Below are positions 611 through 10,906 of a stretch of DNA of 10,906 bases, piece after piece. Origin of the DNA: Candidatus Thorarchaeota archaeon (lineage in GTDB: Archaea; Asgardarchaeota; Thorarchaeia; Thorarchaeales; Thorarchaeaceae); NCBI GenBank assembly GCA_048882385.1, contig JBHLRQ010000102.1, forward strand, positions 1 to 10,906, written 5' to 3'. Under the pieces are notes generated by a model. That model saw only the letters and a program-made list of their open reading frames with translations. It was not told the origin of the DNA and made no database searches. The first letter of the stretch is position 1, and every line of letters starts with the position of its first letter. Position numbers and translations under genes: made by a program.

Positions 611-1345
611 TTAACGATTCCTTACTGGGATACCGATACTACTCAAATAGATGACACTCTCTTCGGTGGGTTCCAATTCAAGAAGTGTATTGAGTTCATC
701 ATCATAAAGAGATCCTATCTGACAGCTACCAAGTCCAAGACCTTGGGCAGCCAAGGCTAAATTCTGTGCGATGTGACCAGCATCAAGAAACATATAGCGG
801 TAAGCCCTCTGAAGATATTTCCATTTTGACCTCTGAAATACTGCGCTCCAGATGAAGACTACTGATGCGCGCTCTGCAATCTGCTGGTCCAAAGCTCCTG
901 CTTTCACTTCTTTTGCGAAGTTACCTTTTTTCAAAAGTTCGAGTGAATGTTCCTCCACATTATAATGATAGAGTCCCGGTTCTAGTGAAGTGACCCTATT
1001 TACACACAGATAGGTCTCAATAGGATACAGAGCACCAGCAGAGGGTGCTGTGCGTAGTCCATATTCACCAACTCGTGCTGTGAGACCTTGCGTCGCCCAC
1101 AAGATCTGTGATAGGTCTTCAAGGCTGAGTGGATCTTGGGTATACGCACGGAAACTCCGTCTAGTCCTCATCGTTTCCCACAAGCCCGGACCATCTGTAA
1201 CATCAGGAGGAGGTAGCTCGAAGTGTGTTGCAGAAGGATAGGTCTTGTAAGTAGAGAGCTTGGTCGAATAATCGAGGTAGTGTTTTGGTAAGTTACCTCG
1301 TTCGTATTTCGTTGACTTGAGAAAATCATCTCCGACTCCGGACAT
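611..1345 (-). CDS. SagB/ThcOx-family FMN-dependent dehydrogenase / nitroreductase
   Basis: RRSFRAY FMN-binding motif, LSQILWATQG, LRTAPSAGALYPIETY, RSKWKY..RAYRY..LDAGHIAQNL, GLGSCQIG. Start placed at ATG 1345 (MSGVGDD); alternatives are ATG 1351 or TTG 1375. Confidence 0.9.
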   Translation of the reverse strand: MSGVGDDFLKSTKYERGNLPKHYLDYSTKLSTYKTYPSATHFELPPPDVTDGPGLWETMRTRRSFRAYTQDPLSLEDLSQILWATQGLTARVGEYGLRTAPSAGALYPIETYLCVNRVTSLEPGLYHYNVEEHSLELLKKGNFAKEVKAGALDQQIAERASVVFIWSAVFQRSKWKYLQRAYRYMFLDAGHIAQNLALAAQGLGLGSCQIGSLYDDELNTLLELEPTEESVIYLSSIGIPVRNR

Positions 1346-1497
1346 AATCATATTATTGATTCGCTTTGTTATCAATGAGATGTTTTGGACTTAACGGACT
1401 TAACCCGAAAGCATAGACTTTAATGAGGGCTGTGAGCAGCCCGACCTGCTTGACGGGCTTGTATTGCCTGTTCTCCGAATATAAGGAGCTCAACGTA

Positions 1498-6380: not shown

Positions 6381-6475
6381 AATACTTTCGGTTGTACATC
6401 CATTTTTCCGATTAAGAAACCTCTAATTGATAATAATAGATTCTTACGGCATTTCCGGGCCAAAATACTTTCGGT
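6381..6475. repeat. 12-bp direct repeat AATACTTTCGGT (6381-6392, 6464-6475) upstream of the cdc6/orc1 paralog
   Basis: Two exact copies flank the AT-rich stretch TAATTGATAATAATAGATT; a second repeat TTCCGATTA occurs at 6406-6414 and 6518-6526. Confidence 0.75.
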
Positions 6476-6486
6476 GATGTCTCTTA

Positions 6487-6499
6487 GGGGGTTTATATA
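6487..6499 (+). promoter_or_regulatory. TATA box (TTTATATA) preceded by a G-run; probably a leaderless or short-leader cdc6/orc1 transcript
   Basis: TTTATATA at 6492-6499, about 30 nt upstream of ATG 6529; no SD in between; GGGGG at 6487-6491. Confidence 0.65.
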
Positions 6500-6528: not shown

Positions 6529-7665
6529 ATGGTCCGTCCACATCGTAGCCCCAAGGGTTTGTTCGATCCCTATTACGTGCCTAAGAAAATACTTCACCGC
6601 GATAGAGAACTTGAAACAGTGAATGGGATGTATCGTGATTCCGTCGAAGAGGAATACGGAGTCAATTGCTTGGTGCATGGAATTACTGGTGTTGGCATGA
6701 CTGTCTTCTCACGTTACTTCCTAACCAAGATTGTCCCTCAGCAGTTTGATGCTCATACAGTCTATGTTGATGCAAAGCACAAGGATACACTGGAGATTGT
6801 GTCAGAGCTTAATGACAAGATTCACAGGGAAACTAATAGGCCAATTACCGTAGCGTTTGATCTTGATGTCCTCTGGATGCAATTCAAGAGAACAGCATCA
6901 GCAACAGACAAGAAGACCGTCTTCGTTATTGACAATATTGACGAAATGAGTGAGGAAGTTTACACTAAAGTCGCAAGACTCTCCAAGGAGATTCGTGCAA
7001 GTACAATCGGTGTTCTCAATAGTCATGATTACAGGTTGCTTACCAAACTTCCTGCAACCCAGATGGCTTACGACTTTGAGATACCTCTTGATACGTACAC
7101 TCAATCACAACTCTATGACATTGTACGAATGAGGGTAGAGGACACATTTCCACTTGGTCTGACCGAGGAGGTTGTTCGTTACATCACTGATCTTGTTGTG
7201 GAGTTTGATGCCTCCAAGCCAAAGACTACGATTGAAGCTCTAAAGGCATTGTGGCCTCTGGCTTCAAGTGGTCAGGAGATAGATTCAGATGCAGTGCGGA
7301 ATGCAACCATGTCTATCACATCCTTTGCTCACGATAATGACTACATCGACCTGATTGAAACCATTTCGATGAATGATTTCATGACGCTCATGGTGCTTGA
7401 GGCAATGTGTGAACATTTGATGAGATACAAGACTGAAACATACATTGACCGTCACACCTTGGAAGAAGTCGTGGAAGTAAAGTGTGAAGAACTTGGAGTA
7501 AGATATGCACGCAACGATATCGACAAGAGTTTACAGACACTCATATTCCAATCTGTCGTCTTCGAGAGCGGATACTCCAGAAACCTTCTCTACGTCCTGG
7601 CACCACCTGAGATTATCTATGATGCAACACTTGGACTAAGACGTGAAATGGCACGTAGGAAGTAA
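6529..7665 (+). CDS. cdc6: Cdc6/Orc1-family AAA+ / winged-helix protein with degenerate ATPase motifs
   Basis: N-terminal LFDPYYVPKKILHRDREL matches the Cdc6 'YxPxxLxHRExE' signature; P-loop position HGITGVGMT; Walker B position FVIDNID; YTQSQLYDIVRMRV lid motif; C-terminal wHTH-like region (CEELGV...IDKSLQTL); 378 aa is a typical length. Confidence 0.85.
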   Translation: MVRPHRSPKGLFDPYYVPKKILHRDRELETVNGMYRDSVEEEYGVNCLVHGITGVGMTVFSRYFLTKIVPQQFDAHTVYVDAKHKDTLEIVSELNDKIHRETNRPITVAFDLDVLWMQFKRTASATDKKTVFVIDNIDEMSEEVYTKVARLSKEIRASTIGVLNSHDYRLLTKLPATQMAYDFEIPLDTYTQSQLYDIVRMRVEDTFPLGLTEEVVRYITDLVVEFDASKPKTTIEALKALWPLASSGQEIDSDAVRNATMSITSFAHDNDYIDLIETISMNDFMTLMVLEAMCEHLMRYKTETYIDRHTLEEVVEVKCEELGVRYARNDIDKSLQTLIFQSVVFESGYSRNLLYVLAPPEIIYDATLGLRREMARRK

Positions 7666-8552: not shown

Positions 8553-9320
8553 ATGAAAACTCCAGCAACTCCCCTAGGCCACGGATTTCATACTGCAGAT
8601 GAGTTCAGGTCTTTGAGAGCAGAATCAGGAGTCAAAGCAATTGACAGTCTTCTTGAAGGGGGAATAGAATCAGGCCTAGTACACCTATTCTATGGGGACA
8701 AAGTGCTTCATGATGACTTCCATCGTTTTGCTGTTAAAGCTCAGATGTCCAAGAAGAAAGGAGGACTTGAGAGCCCAACAATAATAATTGATAGTGCTAA
8801 CATGATAAAGATACAAAAGCTGACTAAACTTTCTTTTGAGATTGGTCTTGAACCAGAGGTTGTAATGGACAACATCTACATTTCAAGGGCATTCAACTCT
8901 TCTCAGACATATGATTTGATAATGAACCAGATGGAGAGTTTTCTAGACAAAGTTCCTGCAAGAGTTCTGATGGTAACAGGTCTGCCTAACCTGTATCTTG
9001 AAGAGGGATTCAAAGGAGAAGGGATTCAAGAAATATCCCACATGGCTTCAAAAATTGCAGCAGTCACTCTTCGAAGGAGTTTGTTCACACTTGTATCAGC
9101 TCCAGCTTCAGCTAGGAGACCAAATCATCCAGAGGGAGGAAGGACATTGGCTACAACGGGACAGGTGCATATTCACGTCAACCAATCTTCCTCTAGGATT
9201 ACTTACACGCTGGCAAAGCACCCTCAATTTCCTGTAAGGCGAACTAACAGAATGAAGCCTGAACCATCGAGTACTACTCTTCCACTCTCGTACTTTCTAA
9301 GAGGGGAGGACAGAGAGTAA
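8553..9320 (+). CDS. RadA/Rad51-paralog-like RecA-fold protein lacking Walker motifs
   Basis: SGVKAIDSLLEGGIESGLVHLFYG resembles RadA TG..LD.LLGGGI..G.ITE.YG; GGLESPTIIIDS resembles GGL....YIDT; GLEPEVVMDNIYISRAFNSSQ resembles RadA GLDPEEVLDNIYVARAYNSDHQ; PEGGRTL resembles PIGGH.L. No N-terminal HhH domain. Confidence 0.82.
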   Translation: MKTPATPLGHGFHTADEFRSLRAESGVKAIDSLLEGGIESGLVHLFYGDKVLHDDFHRFAVKAQMSKKKGGLESPTIIIDSANMIKIQKLTKLSFEIGLEPEVVMDNIYISRAFNSSQTYDLIMNQMESFLDKVPARVLMVTGLPNLYLEEGFKGEGIQEISHMASKIAAVTLRRSLFTLVSAPASARRPNHPEGGRTLATTGQVHIHVNQSSSRITYTLAKHPQFPVRRTNRMKPEPSSTTLPLSYFLRGEDRE

Positions 9321-9331
9321 GGAAACTAGAT

Positions 9332-10906
9332 CTATTTCCTGAGCTTCTCTGCATCCAGACTTCTGATGAGTTCTTCGATAAGGTCTCGTGGCAGCTCCTT
9401 CGCTTGTTTTACGATGATATCAATCTCTGATGCTGGAACTCCCTTCTGCTGAAGCTCTTTTTGCAGTTCTTCAATCTCGAAGGGACTTAGCATATCACTG
9501 GAAAAGCTGAAATCTTCAATTGGAACTATAGGTTCTTCTGACGGAACCTCAGGCGCTTCCTCAGGTTCCTCTTCTTCTGCGAGGAAGACTCGTTCTACTG
9601 GTTCTTCAACTTCCTCATCTTCCTCTGGTTCAGTAAGGAATACACGCTCAACTTCAGGCTCAGCTTTCTCAGTCTTTTCGCCAGCTAATCTCCTATCAGC
9701 CTCTGCAGAAAGTTCATCAATAATCTCCTCAACGGTCTTGCCCTCGCGACGAGCAGCACGAATGGCTTCCTGCATAATGACCTCTTTCACGAAAGCAGCC
9801 TGCTCACTAAGCTTCATCTTTGCAATGTCAGCTTTAAACTCATCAAGTTCCTGCTGGTTAAGGTTGGTTAGAATAGATAGCTGTATGAGTAGCCCTCCGA
9901 GCTCCGGAACTTGCACTGGAATGGATTCTTCAGGCATCTGATCAGGAGTTCGAATGATACCAGTCTTCTCATACGTGTCATTGAATAAGTCTGAAACAAT
10001 ATCTTGTCGGCTCTTGATACCGCCTAAAGGCTTAGGCACTTTGCCCTTCCTAATGGTCTTGATTAGCCCATTTATCTGTCGTAGTCGCTTTGGAACACTC
10101 CAGACTCTAACATAGACTGCAATAACAAGTGCAAGGATTATTCCAATTGGTGCACCAAAGTAGAATACGGTTGTCATTGTTCTAGCAAATTCTGTCGGAT
10201 GTACATCAATTCGAAGAGTTATTGAGAGAGCTAGTGTATCTGTCTTACTAAGTACTAGGACAAGTTGGGAGCTTCCTTCGTCTGTTCCAATGAATGGGGA
10301 CGCAGCAAAGAATTCAATGACATAATGCCCTGGATTATTTGGATCTTCATAAGGAGTTCCAAATGATACCAACTCTATGAATGATAGCTGAGTGTCCAAG
10401 CTCAGGTTTGCGTTGGTAATCACTGCACCTTCTGCATGTCCAGCCCAATCATTGTTGTATCTCACAACAATGCTACCTGAGTCACCATATTGCAGGTCAA
10501 ATTGTGTAAATATGGGATTGGGATATGTATCAGGACCGATATTGATCTCTGTAATCGTGAATGAAGTCGGTAAGTCAATTATTCGAATCTTGATATTTCT
10601 CTCAGCGATTGAGTGATTTCCTATCCAAAACCTGAAAGTTAGTTCGTATGCAAACAGTCGAGGATCAGTTGTGGTATTAAGAAGCCAAACATCTGTGGAA
10701 TCAAAGATGAATCTGTAAGAACCATTCACTAACTCTTCAACAGAGAAATAAGTTGGAGGGCGAGTTGGTCCGAAAATATCACTCAGATTAAGTTGAGCAT
10801 TTGAAATCCCGCCAACATAGCCATCTGAATCATCTGTATCGTTATAGAAAAGAAGTATCTCCATTGATTCTCCTATTGGCACGATGTAATTATCGACACC
10901 AGATGA
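9332..10906 (-). CDS. Large single-pass membrane/surface protein, C-terminal part (5' end outside window)
   Basis: Frame stays open from 10882 to the window edge (SSGVDNYI upstream of the GTG). Beta-rich region with six NxS/T sequons, one TM helix (FYFGAPIGIILALVIAVYV), basic stop-transfer segment (PKRLRQ..KTIRKGK), helical region, Glu/Pro-rich linker and C-terminal helical domain. Confidence 0.85.
   Translation of the reverse strand, partial: SSGVDNYIVPIGESMEILLFYNDTDDSDGYVGGISNAQLNLSDIFGPTRPPTYFSVEELVNGSYRFIFDSTDVWLLNTTTDPRLFAYELTFRFWIGNHSIAERNIKIRIIDLPTSFTITEINIGPDTYPNPIFTQFDLQYGDSGSIVVRYNNDWAGHAEGAVITNANLSLDTQLSFIELVSFGTPYEDPNNPGHYVIEFFAASPFIGTDEGSSQLVLVLSKTDTLALSITLRIDVHPTEFARTMTTVFYFGAPIGIILALVIAVYVRVWSVPKRLRQINGLIKTIRKGKVPKPLGGIKSRQDIVSDLFNDTYEKTGIIRTPDQMPEESIPVQVPELGGLLIQLSILTNLNQQELDEFKADIAKMKLSEQAAFVKEVIMQEAIRAARREGKTVEEIIDELSAEADRRLAGEKTEKAEPEVERVFLTEPEEDEEVEEPVERVFLAEEEEPEEAPEVPSEEPIVPIEDFSFSSDMLSPFEIEELQKELQQKGVPASEIDIIVKQAKELPRDLIEELIRSLDAEKLRK

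What the first reader, a model, noticed from the sequence alone, without database searches (positions are those of the whole stretch)
6529..7665. Full-length but apparently ATPase-dead Orc1/Cdc6 paralog (analogous to eukaryotic Orc2/Orc3)
Seen: Walker A GITGVGMT (Lys->Met, codon 6697-6699), Walker B VIDNID (Glu->Asn, 6934-6936), no Arg at the expected arginine-finger position (ATQMAY where 'SRL' is usual), sensor-2 'GDAR' replaced by SKPK, and no basic GRxG wing in the wH domain. The ORF is intact, normal length and has a good TATA box. Several independent losses argue against a single sequencing error even though ATG/AAG differ by one base. Eukaryotic ORC includes ATPase-inactive paralogs, whereas archaeal Orc1/Cdc6 proteins normally keep these motifs. 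It could be a structural subunit of a heteromeric proto-ORC, an inhibitor or a transcription regulator (inference).
Basis: partly seen in the sequence, partly recalled or inferred. Interest (0 to 1): 0.8.

Follow-up and report, generated by a model that had tools for sequence, protein, structure and literature searches.

The report
Switch-less Orc1/Cdc6 paralog in damage regulon
An Asgard (Thorarchaeia) archaeon carries a strongly conserved third Orc1/Cdc6-like protein that has lost its ATPase motifs, and its promoter bears the same control box that marks DNA-damage-response genes in Sulfolobus, so it looks like a damage-response component and not a decaying replication initiator.

Summary
Window 6529-7665 (+) encodes a 378-aa protein with a confident three-domain Orc1/Cdc6 fold. 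It has Met at the Walker A Lys position, Asn at the Walker B Glu position and no Arg finger. The gene is not decaying: it was found as a single match in 31 of 31 genomes of its family, at 68-92% identity, with dN/dS 0.03-0.07.

It belongs to a wider clade found in 78 of 151 Asgard genomes, including Lokiarchaeota-labelled relatives. No sampled member keeps the Walker B Glu, but most members outside Thorarchaeia keep the Walker A Lys.

The new result is a conserved oriented promoter box about 20 nt upstream of the TATA box (window 6464-6475). The same box sits upstream of the canonical class II Cdc6-2 gene, a TFB paralog followed by a pilus-type ATPase, Nre and a Y-family polymerase. It is not upstream of Cdc6-1. 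Its consensus matches the published Sulfolobus islandicus DDRE, the site bound by the regulator Orc1-2.

Best reading: a switch-less, class II-derived Orc paralog wired into an Orc1-2-type DNA-damage circuit. Its molecular role is not settled. A proto-ORC structural role gained no support. I found no description of it in print.

The parts
6529..7665 (+). CDS of the 378-aa switch-less Orc1/Cdc6-like protein: AAA+ base, lid, winged helix, and a C-terminal basic helix.
   Evidence: TIGR02928 4.6e-22, 78.4 bits, below the 181.3-bit cut-off. AF2 model pLDDT 91.1, pTM 0.86. Foldseek top hit 1fnn_A, TM 0.75.
6697..6699 (+). ATG codon, Met57, at the Walker A lysine position (GITGVGMT).
   Evidence: Lys in 0 of 26 ortholog clusters. 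M 24, R 2, S 1 of 27 genomes.
6934..6936 (+). Asn136 codon at the Walker B glutamate position (VIDNID).
   Evidence: Invariant in 26 of 26. N 25, G 2 of 27. Glu at this position in none of the 40 genomes tabulated across the wider clade.
6460..6485 (+). Proximal DDRE-like promoter box. The core AATACTTTCGGT is at 6464-6475 and ends 17 nt before the TATA box.
   Evidence: 31.3 bits with a matrix built from the 27 other Thorarchaeales promoters, the second-best site in the 3.7-Mb genome. A box at -61 to -69 from the ATG in 28 of 28 Thorarchaeales loci. Consensus matches the S. islandicus DDRE.
6381..6392 (+). Second, distal copy of the 12-nt box core, 83 nt upstream of the first and in the same orientation.
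   Evidence: repeat D10, 100% identical. Such an internal repeat was seen only in this genome's locus among 27.
6492..6499 (+). TATA box TTTATATA, ending 29 nt before the ATG (a short or absent leader is inferred).
   Evidence: Conserved TTTATATA or TTAAATA at the same place in the orthologous upstreams.

Best explanation
The gene encodes a non-catalytic ('switch-less') member of the Orc1/Cdc6 family. It probably arose by duplication of the class II (Cdc6-2 / Orc1-2-type) paralog in the lineage leading to Thorarchaeia and Lokiarchaeia. It is part of an Orc1-2-type DNA-damage-response circuit, not of the replication-origin machinery.

Shown by the data:
- The fold is kept, while the ATP-binding Lys (in Thorarchaeia) and the hydrolytic Glu (in the whole clade) are lost.
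- Purifying selection is strong.
- The promoter carries an oriented box at a fixed distance from the TATA box.
- The same box precedes the canonical Cdc6-2 gene, a TFB paralog followed by a type-IV-pilus-type ATPase, Nre and a Y-family polymerase, but not Cdc6-1.
- The box consensus matches the DDRE that Sulfolobus Orc1-2 binds.

Inferred:
- The canonical, ATPase-competent Cdc6-2 ortholog recognises the box, as Orc1-2 does in Sulfolobus, and induces this gene after DNA damage.
- The product cannot cycle between ATP and ADP states, so it acts purely by binding. My favoured version is that it binds its class II parent's targets (DDRE promoters or the parent's partners) as a fixed-state modulator that prolongs or limits the response, and that its activity is set by how much of it is made.
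For: - Motif losses are conserved in all orthologs.
- The gene gave one match in each of 31 of 31 family genomes at 68-92% identity. Cdc6-2 shows 66-91% and Cdc6-1 79-94% in the same genomes.
- dN/dS is 0.027-0.065 in the 3 of 351 pairs whose synonymous sites are not saturated.
- The AF2 model (pLDDT 91.1) matches archaeal Cdc6 over all three domains.
- The clade is monophyletic (SH-aLRT 100) and joins the class II rows (SH-aLRT 91; FastTree 100).
- The box lies at -61 to -69 in 28 of 28 Thorarchaeales loci and is also present in f19 (2 of 2), f12 (3 of 3) and f24 (1 of 1) loci.
- In the own genome the three strongest matrix sites are the TFB-paralog promoter (31.8 bits), this gene (31.3) and Nre (28.5). 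The Y-family polymerase promoter scores 20.1. The shuffled 1-Mb maximum is 13-21 bits.
- Footprinting in relatives: TFB paralog 26 of 28 loci at 14.6 bits or more at one fixed position; Nre 28 of 30 at 15 or more; Y-family polymerase 19 of 26 at 11 or more at a fixed position. Opposite-strand maxima are 5.8, 3.4 and 11.7 bits.
- For Cdc6-2 the best hit is at -94 to -106 in 21 of 21 loci (17 of 21 at 10 bits or more). For Cdc6-1, 0 of 21 loci exceed 1.2 bits.
- The Thor consensus agrees with the published 20-bp S. islandicus DDRE consensus at 10 of its first 11 positions. The eleventh is the N of ANTTTC.
- Orc1-2 binds that motif on its own promoter and on the ups, ced and tfb3 promoters (passages read).
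Against: - No expression or damage-induction data exist for this organism, so induction is inferred from the box alone.
- Which protein binds the box is not shown.
- In S. islandicus the Walker A mutant of Orc1-2 binds DNA poorly and loses regulation, so a Lys-less paralog may not bind DNA in the parental way.
- The Arg residues that align with wH contacts are not conserved. R328 varies among the 26 aligned orthologs. Wing residue 350 is R or K in most but Q, S, P, A or H in others.
- The ISM loop carries conserved acidic residues (FDLD).
- The class II affiliation rests on one long stem and moderate support, and a long-branch row sits next to the clade.
- The matrix was trained on this gene's own promoters in the same genomes in which the other promoters were scored, and related genomes are not independent.
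- In f9 (Lokiarchaeota-labelled) loci no box passed the matrix (0 of 4).
Confidence: 0.5

Rival explanations
1. The protein is itself the box-binding, autoregulated master regulator of the damage response, the functional counterpart of Sulfolobus Orc1-2. The canonical Cdc6-2 would then be one of its targets or a second initiator.
For: - The best-matching box in the regulon sits on this gene's own promoter, as expected of an autoregulator (31.3 bits against 5.8-18.4 bits on Cdc6-2).
- In family f19 the clade member carries a box (27.3 bits in 1 of 2 loci by matrix, 2 of 2 by pattern), while the two Cdc6-2-type genes examined there do not.
- Orc1-2 up-regulates its own gene.
- Most members outside Thorarchaeia keep the Walker A Lys but lack the Glu. 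In S. islandicus that state binds DDR promoters as strongly as wild type or more strongly.
Against: - Thorarchaeia lack the Lys, whose loss abolishes regulation in S. islandicus.
- The wH Arg contacts are not conserved.
- One genome (f8, 96% complete) has the box on Cdc6-2 without any clade member.
- An intact, box-bearing Cdc6-2 ortholog is present in all these genomes.
Confidence: 0.2
2. It is a damage-induced inhibitor of replication initiation. As a dead initiator look-alike it would occupy Cdc6-1, MCM or origin DNA and block helicase loading while damage is repaired.
For: - It belongs to the box regulon.
- It has a complete Orc fold without any nucleotide switch.
- In S. islandicus the Orc1-2 response includes inhibition of replication initiation (discussion passage).
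Against: - No evidence of contact with Cdc6-1 or MCM was sought or obtained.
- There is no origin-like DNA near the gene.
- The DNA-contact residues of initiators are not kept.
Confidence: 0.15
3. One reading: a structural, ATPase-inactive subunit of a heteromeric origin-recognition complex, comparable to eukaryotic Orc2/Orc3 (a proto-ORC).
For: - It is a conserved, universally present third Orc paralog with dead motifs, alongside two active ones.
- Conserved basic residues (R169, K173) follow sensor 1 and could act in trans (inference).
- Asgard archaea have a published precedent of an AAA+ heteromer with a Walker-B-less subunit, the RfcS2 of Lokiarchaeales (passage).
Against: - There is no specific sequence or fold affinity to Orc2-5.
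- The gene is far from the initiator genes and co-regulated with repair genes, not with Cdc6-1.
- The clade is not found in 66 of 66 sampled genomes of 19 other Asgard families.
Confidence: 0.1
4. It is a decaying pseudogene-like remnant, or an assembly or sequencing artefact.
For: The Met and Lys codons differ by one base. The HMM score is below the family cut-off.
Against: - The frame is intact in all genomes searched.
- dN/dS is 0.03-0.07.
- The motif changes are shared by all orthologs.
- The sequence is identical in contigs of two other runs.
- The promoter is conserved.
Confidence: 0.01

Closest known systems
Orc1-2 (Cdc6-2 class) of Sulfolobales, the global DNA-damage-response regulator (PMC6061795, PMC9738581; passages read).
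   Same: - It is a non-initiator Orc1/Cdc6 paralog that is not adjacent to an origin.
- Its own promoter carries the DDRE-type box. The Thor consensus equals the S. islandicus consensus at 10 of its first 11 positions.
- The box-bearing gene set includes a TFB paralog, a pilus-type ATPase and a lesion-bypass-type polymerase. This resembles tfb3, ups and dpo2, although the polymerase families differ.
   Different: - Orc1-2 has intact Walker A and B, and needs ATP binding to regulate and hydrolysis to switch off. The Thor protein has neither motif.
- The genomes here also keep a canonical Cdc6-2 ortholog, so this is an extra paralog and not the ortholog.
- The wH Arg pairs important in Orc1-2 have no conserved counterpart.
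Archaeal class II Orc1/Cdc6 (P. aerophilum Cdc6 1fnn, A. pernix ORC2 1w5s). The class labels are recalled, not taken from a call.
   Same: - The whole three-domain fold matches (TM 0.75 to 1fnn_A).
- It groups with the rows that contain the genome's own 1fnn-like paralog in the trees.
- The N-terminal YVP motif, the P-loop glycines and the sensor-1 Asn are kept.
   Different: - About 17% identity to the genome's own paralogs.
- Below the TIGR02928 cut-off.
- Walker A Lys, Walker B Glu, the Arg finger and the GDAR context are lost.
- The wing is short and not basic, and there is an added C-terminal basic helix in Thorarchaeia.
Eukaryotic ORC subunits without ATPase activity (Orc2, Orc3; Orc4 and Orc5 bind but do not hydrolyse). 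These properties are recalled from textbook knowledge.
   Same: An Orc-fold protein with a degenerate nucleotide site, retained alongside active paralogs.
   Different: - No specific sequence or structural affinity (Orc5 4e-7, Orc4 6e-4, no Orc2 or Orc3 chain among the 60 rows shown, against 1e-25 for archaeal proteins).
- No evidence of a heteromer.
- Regulated with repair genes.
RfcS2 of Lokiarchaeales (PMC12680538; passages read).
   Same: An Asgard-specific AAA+ paralog that lost Walker B while its partners keep it.
   Different: A different AAA+ family (clamp loader). RfcS2 keeps Walker A and the Arg finger, and its complex was shown by co-purification. Nothing comparable is known here.

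Membership tests
Archaeal Orc1/Cdc6 initiators (TIGR02928) | Three-domain architecture: AAA+ base, lid, C-terminal winged helix. | tested here: met
   AF2 pLDDT 91.1, pTM 0.86. Foldseek 1fnn_A E 2.3e-17, TM 0.75, followed by 2qby, 1w5t and 2v1u.
Archaeal Orc1/Cdc6 initiators (TIGR02928) | Score above the curated family cut-off. | tested here: not met
   78.4 bits against a cut-off of 181.3. The two canonical paralogs score 421.8 and 297.4.
Archaeal Orc1/Cdc6 initiators (TIGR02928) | Walker A GxxGxGK[ST]. | tested here: not met
   GITGVGMT. Lys in 0 of 26 ortholog clusters and 0 of 27 f1 genomes.
Archaeal Orc1/Cdc6 initiators (TIGR02928) | Walker B hhhhDE. | tested here: not met
   VIDN. No Glu in any of the 40 genomes tabulated across the clade.
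Archaeal Orc1/Cdc6 initiators (TIGR02928) | Arginine finger (box VII). | tested here: not met
   The aligned residue is Pro175. Arg occurs there in 1 of 27 genomes.
Archaeal Orc1/Cdc6 initiators (TIGR02928) | Sensor 1 Asn and sensor 2 Arg. | tested here: inconclusive
   N164 is kept. At the aligned sensor-2 position K 18, R 7, T 2 of 27, but in a changed context with a 5-residue insertion.
Archaeal Orc1/Cdc6 initiators (TIGR02928) | Basic DNA contacts of the wH (recognition-helix Arg, GRxG wing) and the ISM. | tested here: not met
   The wing is GYSR, short and variable. R328 is not conserved. The ISM loop reads FDLD.
Archaeal Orc1/Cdc6 initiators (TIGR02928) | Gene adjacent to the origin it serves, with ORB repeats. 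| tested here: not met
   The only intergenic repeat is the two box copies. The gene lies 1.25 Mb from Cdc6-1 in single-contig genome G157. Origins themselves were not mapped.
Orc1-2-type DNA-damage regulator circuit (Sulfolobales) | DDRE box on the gene's own promoter. | tested here: met
   28 of 28 Thorarchaeales loci. 31.3 bits. Consensus comparison.
Orc1-2-type DNA-damage regulator circuit (Sulfolobales) | The same box on promoters of damage-response genes. | tested here: met
   TFB paralog 26 of 28, Nre 28 of 30, Y-family polymerase 19 of 26, Cdc6-2 21 of 21 at a fixed position, Cdc6-1 0 of 21.
Orc1-2-type DNA-damage regulator circuit (Sulfolobales) | Class II (Cdc6-2) descent. | tested here: inconclusive
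   Joins the class II rows with FastTree support 100 and SH-aLRT 91, but on a 1.25-1.31 stem with a long-branch neighbour.
Orc1-2-type DNA-damage regulator circuit (Sulfolobales) | ATP binding needed for regulation and hydrolysis needed to switch off. | tested here: not met
   Both motifs are lost. The requirement in S. islandicus comes from passages read.
Orc1-2-type DNA-damage regulator circuit (Sulfolobales) | Induction by DNA damage and specific binding to the box. | not testable with these tools
   No RNA run holds the locus. The tools offer no protein-DNA test.
Eukaryotic inactive ORC subunits (Orc2/Orc3-like) | Specific homology to Orc2-5 beyond general Orc1/Cdc6 likeness. | tested here: not met
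   Profile against PDB: archaeal chains 1.7e-25 and 6.4e-23, Cdc6 8e-14, Orc1 1.6e-10, Orc5 4e-7, Orc4 6e-4, no Orc2 or Orc3 chain among the 60 rows shown. Foldseek TM about 0.5 to eukaryotic chains.
Eukaryotic inactive ORC subunits (Orc2/Orc3-like) | Stable heteromer with active paralogs. | tested here: inconclusive
   The one complex job gave no verdict and is not counted either way.

The most novel reading that the evidence does not exclude
In the common ancestor of Thorarchaeia and Lokiarchaeia, the Orc1-2-type damage regulator duplicated into an ATP-switching regulator and a switch-less copy. The copy is made only after damage and acts as a checkpoint effector on the replication initiators or MCM. 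This would be an archaeal forerunner of damage control over origin licensing, and the first natural, conserved, catalytically dead ORC-family protein outside eukaryotes. It would also mean that the Orc1-2/DDRE circuit predates the split of Thermoproteota and Asgard archaea.
Probability: 0.15. Interest if true: 0.85.

Novelty: new variant of a known kind. Interest (0 to 1): 0.7.

Why it matters
Three points would interest specialists.

1. **A dead Orc1/Cdc6 protein kept by selection.** Asgard archaea hold a conserved Orc1/Cdc6-fold clade that has given up ATP hydrolysis everywhere and ATP binding in Thorarchaeia, yet evolves about as slowly as the canonical Cdc6-2. Its Lokiarchaeota-labelled members are annotated only as hypothetical proteins.

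2. **A shared damage-response operator.** The box that defines the only known archaeal DNA-damage regulon (Sulfolobales Orc1-2/DDRE) recurs almost letter for letter in Thorarchaeia, in front of a coherent set of repair-type genes. This suggests that the circuit is far older and more widespread than the Sulfolobales, and it gives a predicted damage regulon for organisms that are hard to culture.

3. **A natural contrast to a lethal mutant.** In S. islandicus the Walker B mutant of Orc1-2 is lethal. Here nature keeps a Walker-B-less paralog under the same operator. This offers a testable handle on how an AAA+ switch protein can be replaced by control of expression.

It does not by itself bear on the origin of Orc2-5.

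Tried and rejected
- **Heteromer with the canonical Cdc6-2.** One complex-prediction job used alignments A6 and A5 with the dead paralog as partner. The result was no verdict (ipSAE 0.00 and 0.00, controls not run). It is not used for or against binding.
- **Expression.** The look-up of sequencing runs listed 20 DNA holders from 6 studies and no RNA holder. This says nothing on expression.
- **Taxon names of distant members.** The ESM Atlas gave only 'Promethearchaeota' for the nearest cluster. A profile search with A4 returned only Thorarchaeota clusters again. A last search with the f9 member gave Lokiarchaeota and Promethearchaeota labels. The other families remain coded as f6, f12, f15, f19 and f24.
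- **The search for related loci with A4.** No sufficiently conserved stretch, so nothing was scanned.
- **Origin-like repeats.** None beyond the two box copies. The bacterial-type promoter and terminator scan was uninformative.
- **Net charge and pI.** The dead paralog has pI 5.2 and the canonical ones 5.7 and 6.0. This does not discriminate.
- **Neighbourhood.**
  - Thorarchaeaceae synteny is conserved in 8 of 8 loci: malic enzyme, Fe-S/CCG protein, FAD oxidase, then this gene, GcvH, a RadA-like gene and a protein of about 1,750-2,000 aa.
  - It is not conserved in other classes. There a Roadblock/LC7 gene (7 loci), EndoV (2 loci) or Endo_dU (3 loci) lies beside the clade member.
  - I treat the repair-nuclease neighbours as a weak hint only.
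  - The TFB gene next to the f9 members is unrelated to the box-bearing Thor TFB paralog.
- **Co-distribution of the box with the clade.** The test was not decisive.
  - The box on Cdc6-2 was seen in f1, f2, f15 and f6 (clade present) and in f8 (clade not found).
  - It was not seen in f19, f9 and f24 (clade present), nor in the 10 further families tested that lack the clade.
  - The matrix is Thor-derived and may miss diverged boxes.
- **Other matrix hits.** Own-genome hits of 19-20 bits lie inside coding regions (C26, C75, C24) or upstream of deoxyhypusine synthase (C18). They were not followed and lie within the shuffled range.
- **Supplements.** The supplementary files of the papers were closed. 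Supplementary figures and tables of PMC6061795 (DDRE positions, Orc1-2 cluster) and of PMC12680538 (Cdc6 trees, gene neighbourhoods) may bear on novelty, and I could not see them.
Full report
**Observation.** The window holds an intact ORF at 6529-7665 (+) of 378 aa.
- Pfam sees only generic AAA domains (AAA_22, 3e-8). NCBIfam's orc1/cdc6 model TIGR02928 matches residues 10-325 at 4.6e-22 with 78.4 bits, far below its 181.3-bit cut-off.
- Codon 6697-6699 is ATG, giving Met57 in GITGVGMT, and 6934-6936 encodes Asn136 in VIDNID.
- The same genome (3.7 Mb, 256 contigs; the window is contig C102) has two canonical Orc1/Cdc6 genes on contig C1, scoring 421.8 and 297.4 bits. Both have GTGKT, LDE[VL]D and GDAR.
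- Aligned with them, the protein has Met for the Walker A Lys, Asn for the Walker B Glu and Pro175 for the Arg finger. ASKPK plus a 5-residue insertion replaces GDAR, and a short GYSR hairpin replaces the basic GRxG wing. The sensor-1 Asn and a basic residue at the sensor-2 position remain.
- A TATA box lies at 6492-6499.

**It is a conserved gene, not decay or error.**
- A search of the 5.8-billion-protein collection gave 112 relatives. All are at 59% identity or more, and those that carry a taxon label are almost all labelled Thorarchaeota.
- In 26 aligned ortholog clusters, the Walker A position is M 18, R 6, N 1, S 1 and never K. Asp135-Asn136 is invariant.
- In 27 genomes of the same GTDB family, position 57 is M 24, R 2, S 1, and position 136 is N 25, G 2. 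The finger position is Arg in 1 of 27. The sensor-2 position is K 18, R 7, T 2.
- The gene gave one match in each of 31 of 31 family genomes at 68-92% identity. The same genomes show 79-94% for the class I paralog (found in 30 of 31) and 66-91% for the class II paralog.
- Synonymous sites are saturated in 348 of 351 pairs. The three usable pairs give dN/dS 0.027, 0.039 and 0.065.
- Contigs from two other public runs are identical over the motif codons.

**Fold and kinship.**
- An AlphaFold2 model built on a 42-row alignment has pLDDT 91.1 and pTM 0.86. It shows an AAA+ base, a lid, a winged helix and an extra C-terminal helix.
- Foldseek puts P. aerophilum Cdc6 (1fnn_A) first at TM 0.75 over the whole length. 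Next come S. solfataricus Orc1-1 and Orc1-3 and A. pernix ORC2 and ORC1. Eukaryotic Orc1, Orc4 and Cdc6 chains reach TM about 0.5.
- A family profile hits 2qby_A at 1.7e-25, 1fnn at 6.4e-23, human Cdc6 at 8e-14, Orc1 at 1.6e-10, Orc5 at 4e-7 and Orc4 at 6e-4. No Orc2 or Orc3 chain is among the 60 rows shown. There is therefore no special tie to the inactive eukaryotic subunits.
- The genome's paralog L001 is class I-like (2v1u 3e-99). L002 is closest to 1fnn (1e-55). That 1fnn and 1w5s are 'class II' is my recollection, not a call result.

**A wider clade.**
- An exhaustive phmmer search over 1.84 billion representatives found full-length relatives at 20-45% identity (E 1e-107 to 1e-12). These score far above canonical Orc1/Cdc6 proteins.
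- A profile of the relatives, run over 151 genomes of the phylum, gives a bimodal result. Clade-level matches score 215 bits or more, and canonical genes score 106 bits or less.
- By that gap the clade is present in 78 of 151 genomes:
  - own family, 27 of 27;
  - the second family of the order, 1 of 1;
  - f9, 22 of 25;
  - f19, 5 of 6;
  - f12, 18 of 19;
  - f24, 2 of 2;
  - f6, 1 of 1;
  - f15, 2 of 4.
- It was not found in the 66 sampled genomes of 19 other families.
- Relatives of the f9 member carry Lokiarchaeota or Promethearchaeota labels, are called hypothetical proteins, and all but one of the 28 lack a precomputed Pfam hit.
- Across 40 tabulated genomes, no member has Glu at the Walker B position. 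The pairs seen are DN, DG, DD, DK, HN, NN, KN and SQ.
- The Walker A Lys is kept in f9, f19, f24, f6 and f15. It is Arg in f12 and f2, and Met, Arg or Ser in the own family. One protein in the wider alignment (P0126) does read DE.
- Loss of hydrolysis is therefore ancestral or nearly so, and loss of the Lys is a later step.
- In a 137-row FastTree tree the clade forms one group of 59 rows: the 47 rows labelled as clade members plus 12 of the next-best hits (support 100, stem 1.31). Its sister is the group holding all six Thor class II rows (support 100).
- A 65-row IQ-TREE run under LG+C20 keeps the clade (SH-aLRT 100) and joins it to the class II rows at 91. A long-branch row sits in between, so descent from class II is likely but not secure.

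**The promoter box.**
- The upstream regions of the orthologs share a 9-mer exactly in 23 of 27 loci, although synonymous sites are saturated.
- A looser pattern finds the box at -61 to -69 from the ATG in 28 of 28 Thorarchaeales loci. It also finds it in f19 (2 of 2), f12 (3 of 3) and f24 (1 of 1), but not in f9 (0 of 4), f6 or f15. That is 34 of 40 loci in all.
- In the window the box core is at 6464-6475, 17 nt before the TATA box. A second identical copy lies at 6381-6392.
- The 11-mer occurs only 3 times in the 3.7-Mb genome, and the box-plus-TATA arrangement occurs once.

**The regulon in the own genome.** A 26-nt matrix was built from the 27 other Thorarchaeales promoters and scanned over the own genome. 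Shuffled 1-Mb controls peak at 13-21 bits.

| Site | Bits | Gene downstream |
|---|---|---|
| C1:69373 (+) | 31.8 | 346-aa TFB paralog (Zn ribbon, weak TFIIB repeat), followed by a 569-aa T2SSE/pilus-type ATPase |
| C102:6460 (+) | 31.3 | this gene |
| C67:13555 (-) | 28.5 | Nre (PF04894/PF04895) |
| C64:7590 (-) | 20.1 | Y-family DNA polymerase |

**Footprinting in relatives.**
- TFB paralog: 26 of 28 loci at 14.6 bits or more (24 at 20 or more), almost all at one fixed position.
- Nre: 28 of 30 loci at 15 bits or more. The two misses are a truncated locus and a 27%-identical paralog.
- Y-family polymerase: 13 of 26 loci at 15 or more and 19 of 26 at 11 or more, with 24 of 26 best hits at -96 to -136.
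- The opposite strand of the same regions never exceeds 5.8, 3.4 and 11.7 bits.
- Class II Cdc6-2 gene: the best hit is at -94 to -106 in 21 of 21 genomes (5.8-18.4 bits; 17 of 21 at 10 or more).
- Class I gene: no same-strand hit above 1.2 bits in 21 of 21.
- In nine 17-kb Thorarchaeales loci, nearly the only hit of 12 bits or more is the one before the clade gene (9 of 9). It also appears in f19 (1 of 2, 27.3 bits) and f12 (2 of 3).

**Identity of the box.**
- Sun et al. 2018 (PMC6061795, passages read) report that S. islandicus Orc1-2 binds the ANTTTC motif (DDRE). It lies within a 20-bp consensus, AATAGTTTCRGWDTACTCWS, on damage-induced promoters (upsA, upsE, tfb3, cedA1). They also report that Orc1-2 up-regulates its own gene.
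- Liu et al. 2022 (PMC9738581, passages read) add three points. The Walker A mutant loses regulation and binds DNA poorly. The Walker B mutant is lethal and binds as strongly as wild type or more strongly. ISM and wH arginines give specificity.
- The Thor consensus printed reads GAATACTTTCGG followed by a pyrimidine-rich TC-type tail. It equals the Sulfolobus consensus at 10 of its first 11 positions, and the eleventh is the N of ANTTTC. It agrees in register at several downstream positions. This comparison was made by eye from the two outputs.
- The box-bearing gene set (Orc paralogs, a TFB paralog, a pilus-type ATPase, a lesion-bypass polymerase, Nre) parallels the Sulfolobus damage regulon in kind.

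**Interpretation.**
- The gene is best read as a component of an Orc1-2-type damage circuit that Thorarchaeia share with Sulfolobales.
- An intact class II ortholog with the same box is present in these genomes, so I infer that this ortholog reads the box and that the dead paralog is one of its strongest targets. This remains an inference.
- The product has no nucleotide switch, so it must work by binding. Its dose, not its ATP state, would be the control point.
- Whether it binds box DNA, the class II parent, the initiator or MCM is open.
- For autoregulation: its own box is the best in the regulon, and in f19 only the clade member carries a box.
- Against it: the lost Lys, the unconserved wH arginines, and one genome (f8) with a box-bearing Cdc6-2 but no clade member.

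**Limits.**
- There are no expression data and no protein-DNA or protein-protein evidence.
- Related genomes are not independent.
- The matrix is Thor-derived.
- Other families are known only by code.
- Class labels of PDB entries are recalled.

**Novelty.**
- Full-text searches and passages of PMC12680538, PMC7058166, PMC12993045 and PMC12490963 gave no description of an ATPase-dead Asgard Orc1/Cdc6 clade or of a DDRE in Asgard archaea.
- Supplements were closed, and subscription journals are not covered.

Noticed in passing
G000 contig C1, 69373-72337 (locus L059 9373-12337): The strongest box in the genome precedes a 346-aa TFB paralog (Zn ribbon plus a weak TFIIB repeat), followed directly by a 569-aa T2SSE/pilus-type ATPase. 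The pair lies about 4 kb from the class II Cdc6-2 gene. Comparable spacing (about 4-7 kb) is evident from the coordinates in several relatives, such as G149, G158, G116 and G027. It is reminiscent of tfb3 and upsE in Sulfolobus.
   Followed up: partly
window 8553-9320 (+): A 255-aa RadA/Rad51-core paralog (Pfam Rad51 2.9e-16, no N-terminal domain) is conserved downstream of the dead Orc gene in 8 of 8 Thorarchaeaceae loci. No box scoring 10 bits or more was found before it in the own-genome scan.
   Followed up: partly
window 9332-10906 (-), continuing beyond the window: This is the start of a very large conserved protein (1,753-2,012 aa in seven relatives) with no Pfam family. It always lies next to the RadA-like gene.
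   Followed up: partly
loci L051-L056 and L058 (families f19, f12, f24, f15): A Roadblock/LC7-domain gene (PF03259; 194-483 aa) lies immediately upstream of the clade member on the opposite strand in all seven loci examined. The two share the intergenic region that holds the box where one is present.
   Followed up: no
loci L047 and L048 (f9); L053-L055 (f12): Repair nucleases lie beside the clade member in other classes. Endonuclease V is directly upstream and a canonical-looking TFB directly downstream in two f9 loci. Endonuclease dU (PF01949) is adjacent in three f12 loci.
   Followed up: partly
loci L049 and L050 (f9); L056 (f24): Some clade members keep the Walker A Lys but replace the following Thr/Ser (GIGKK, GAGKN), and their Walker B has no acidic residue at all (NN, KN, SQ).
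   Followed up: no
window 611-1375 (-): A SagB-type dehydrogenase domain protein (TIGR03605, 3.9e-49) stands alone, with no obvious peptide-maturation partners within the window.
   Followed up: no
G007 (family f8), locus L192: The Cdc6-2-type gene carries a box at -104 (15.7 bits), although no clade member was found in this 96%-complete genome.
   Followed up: no
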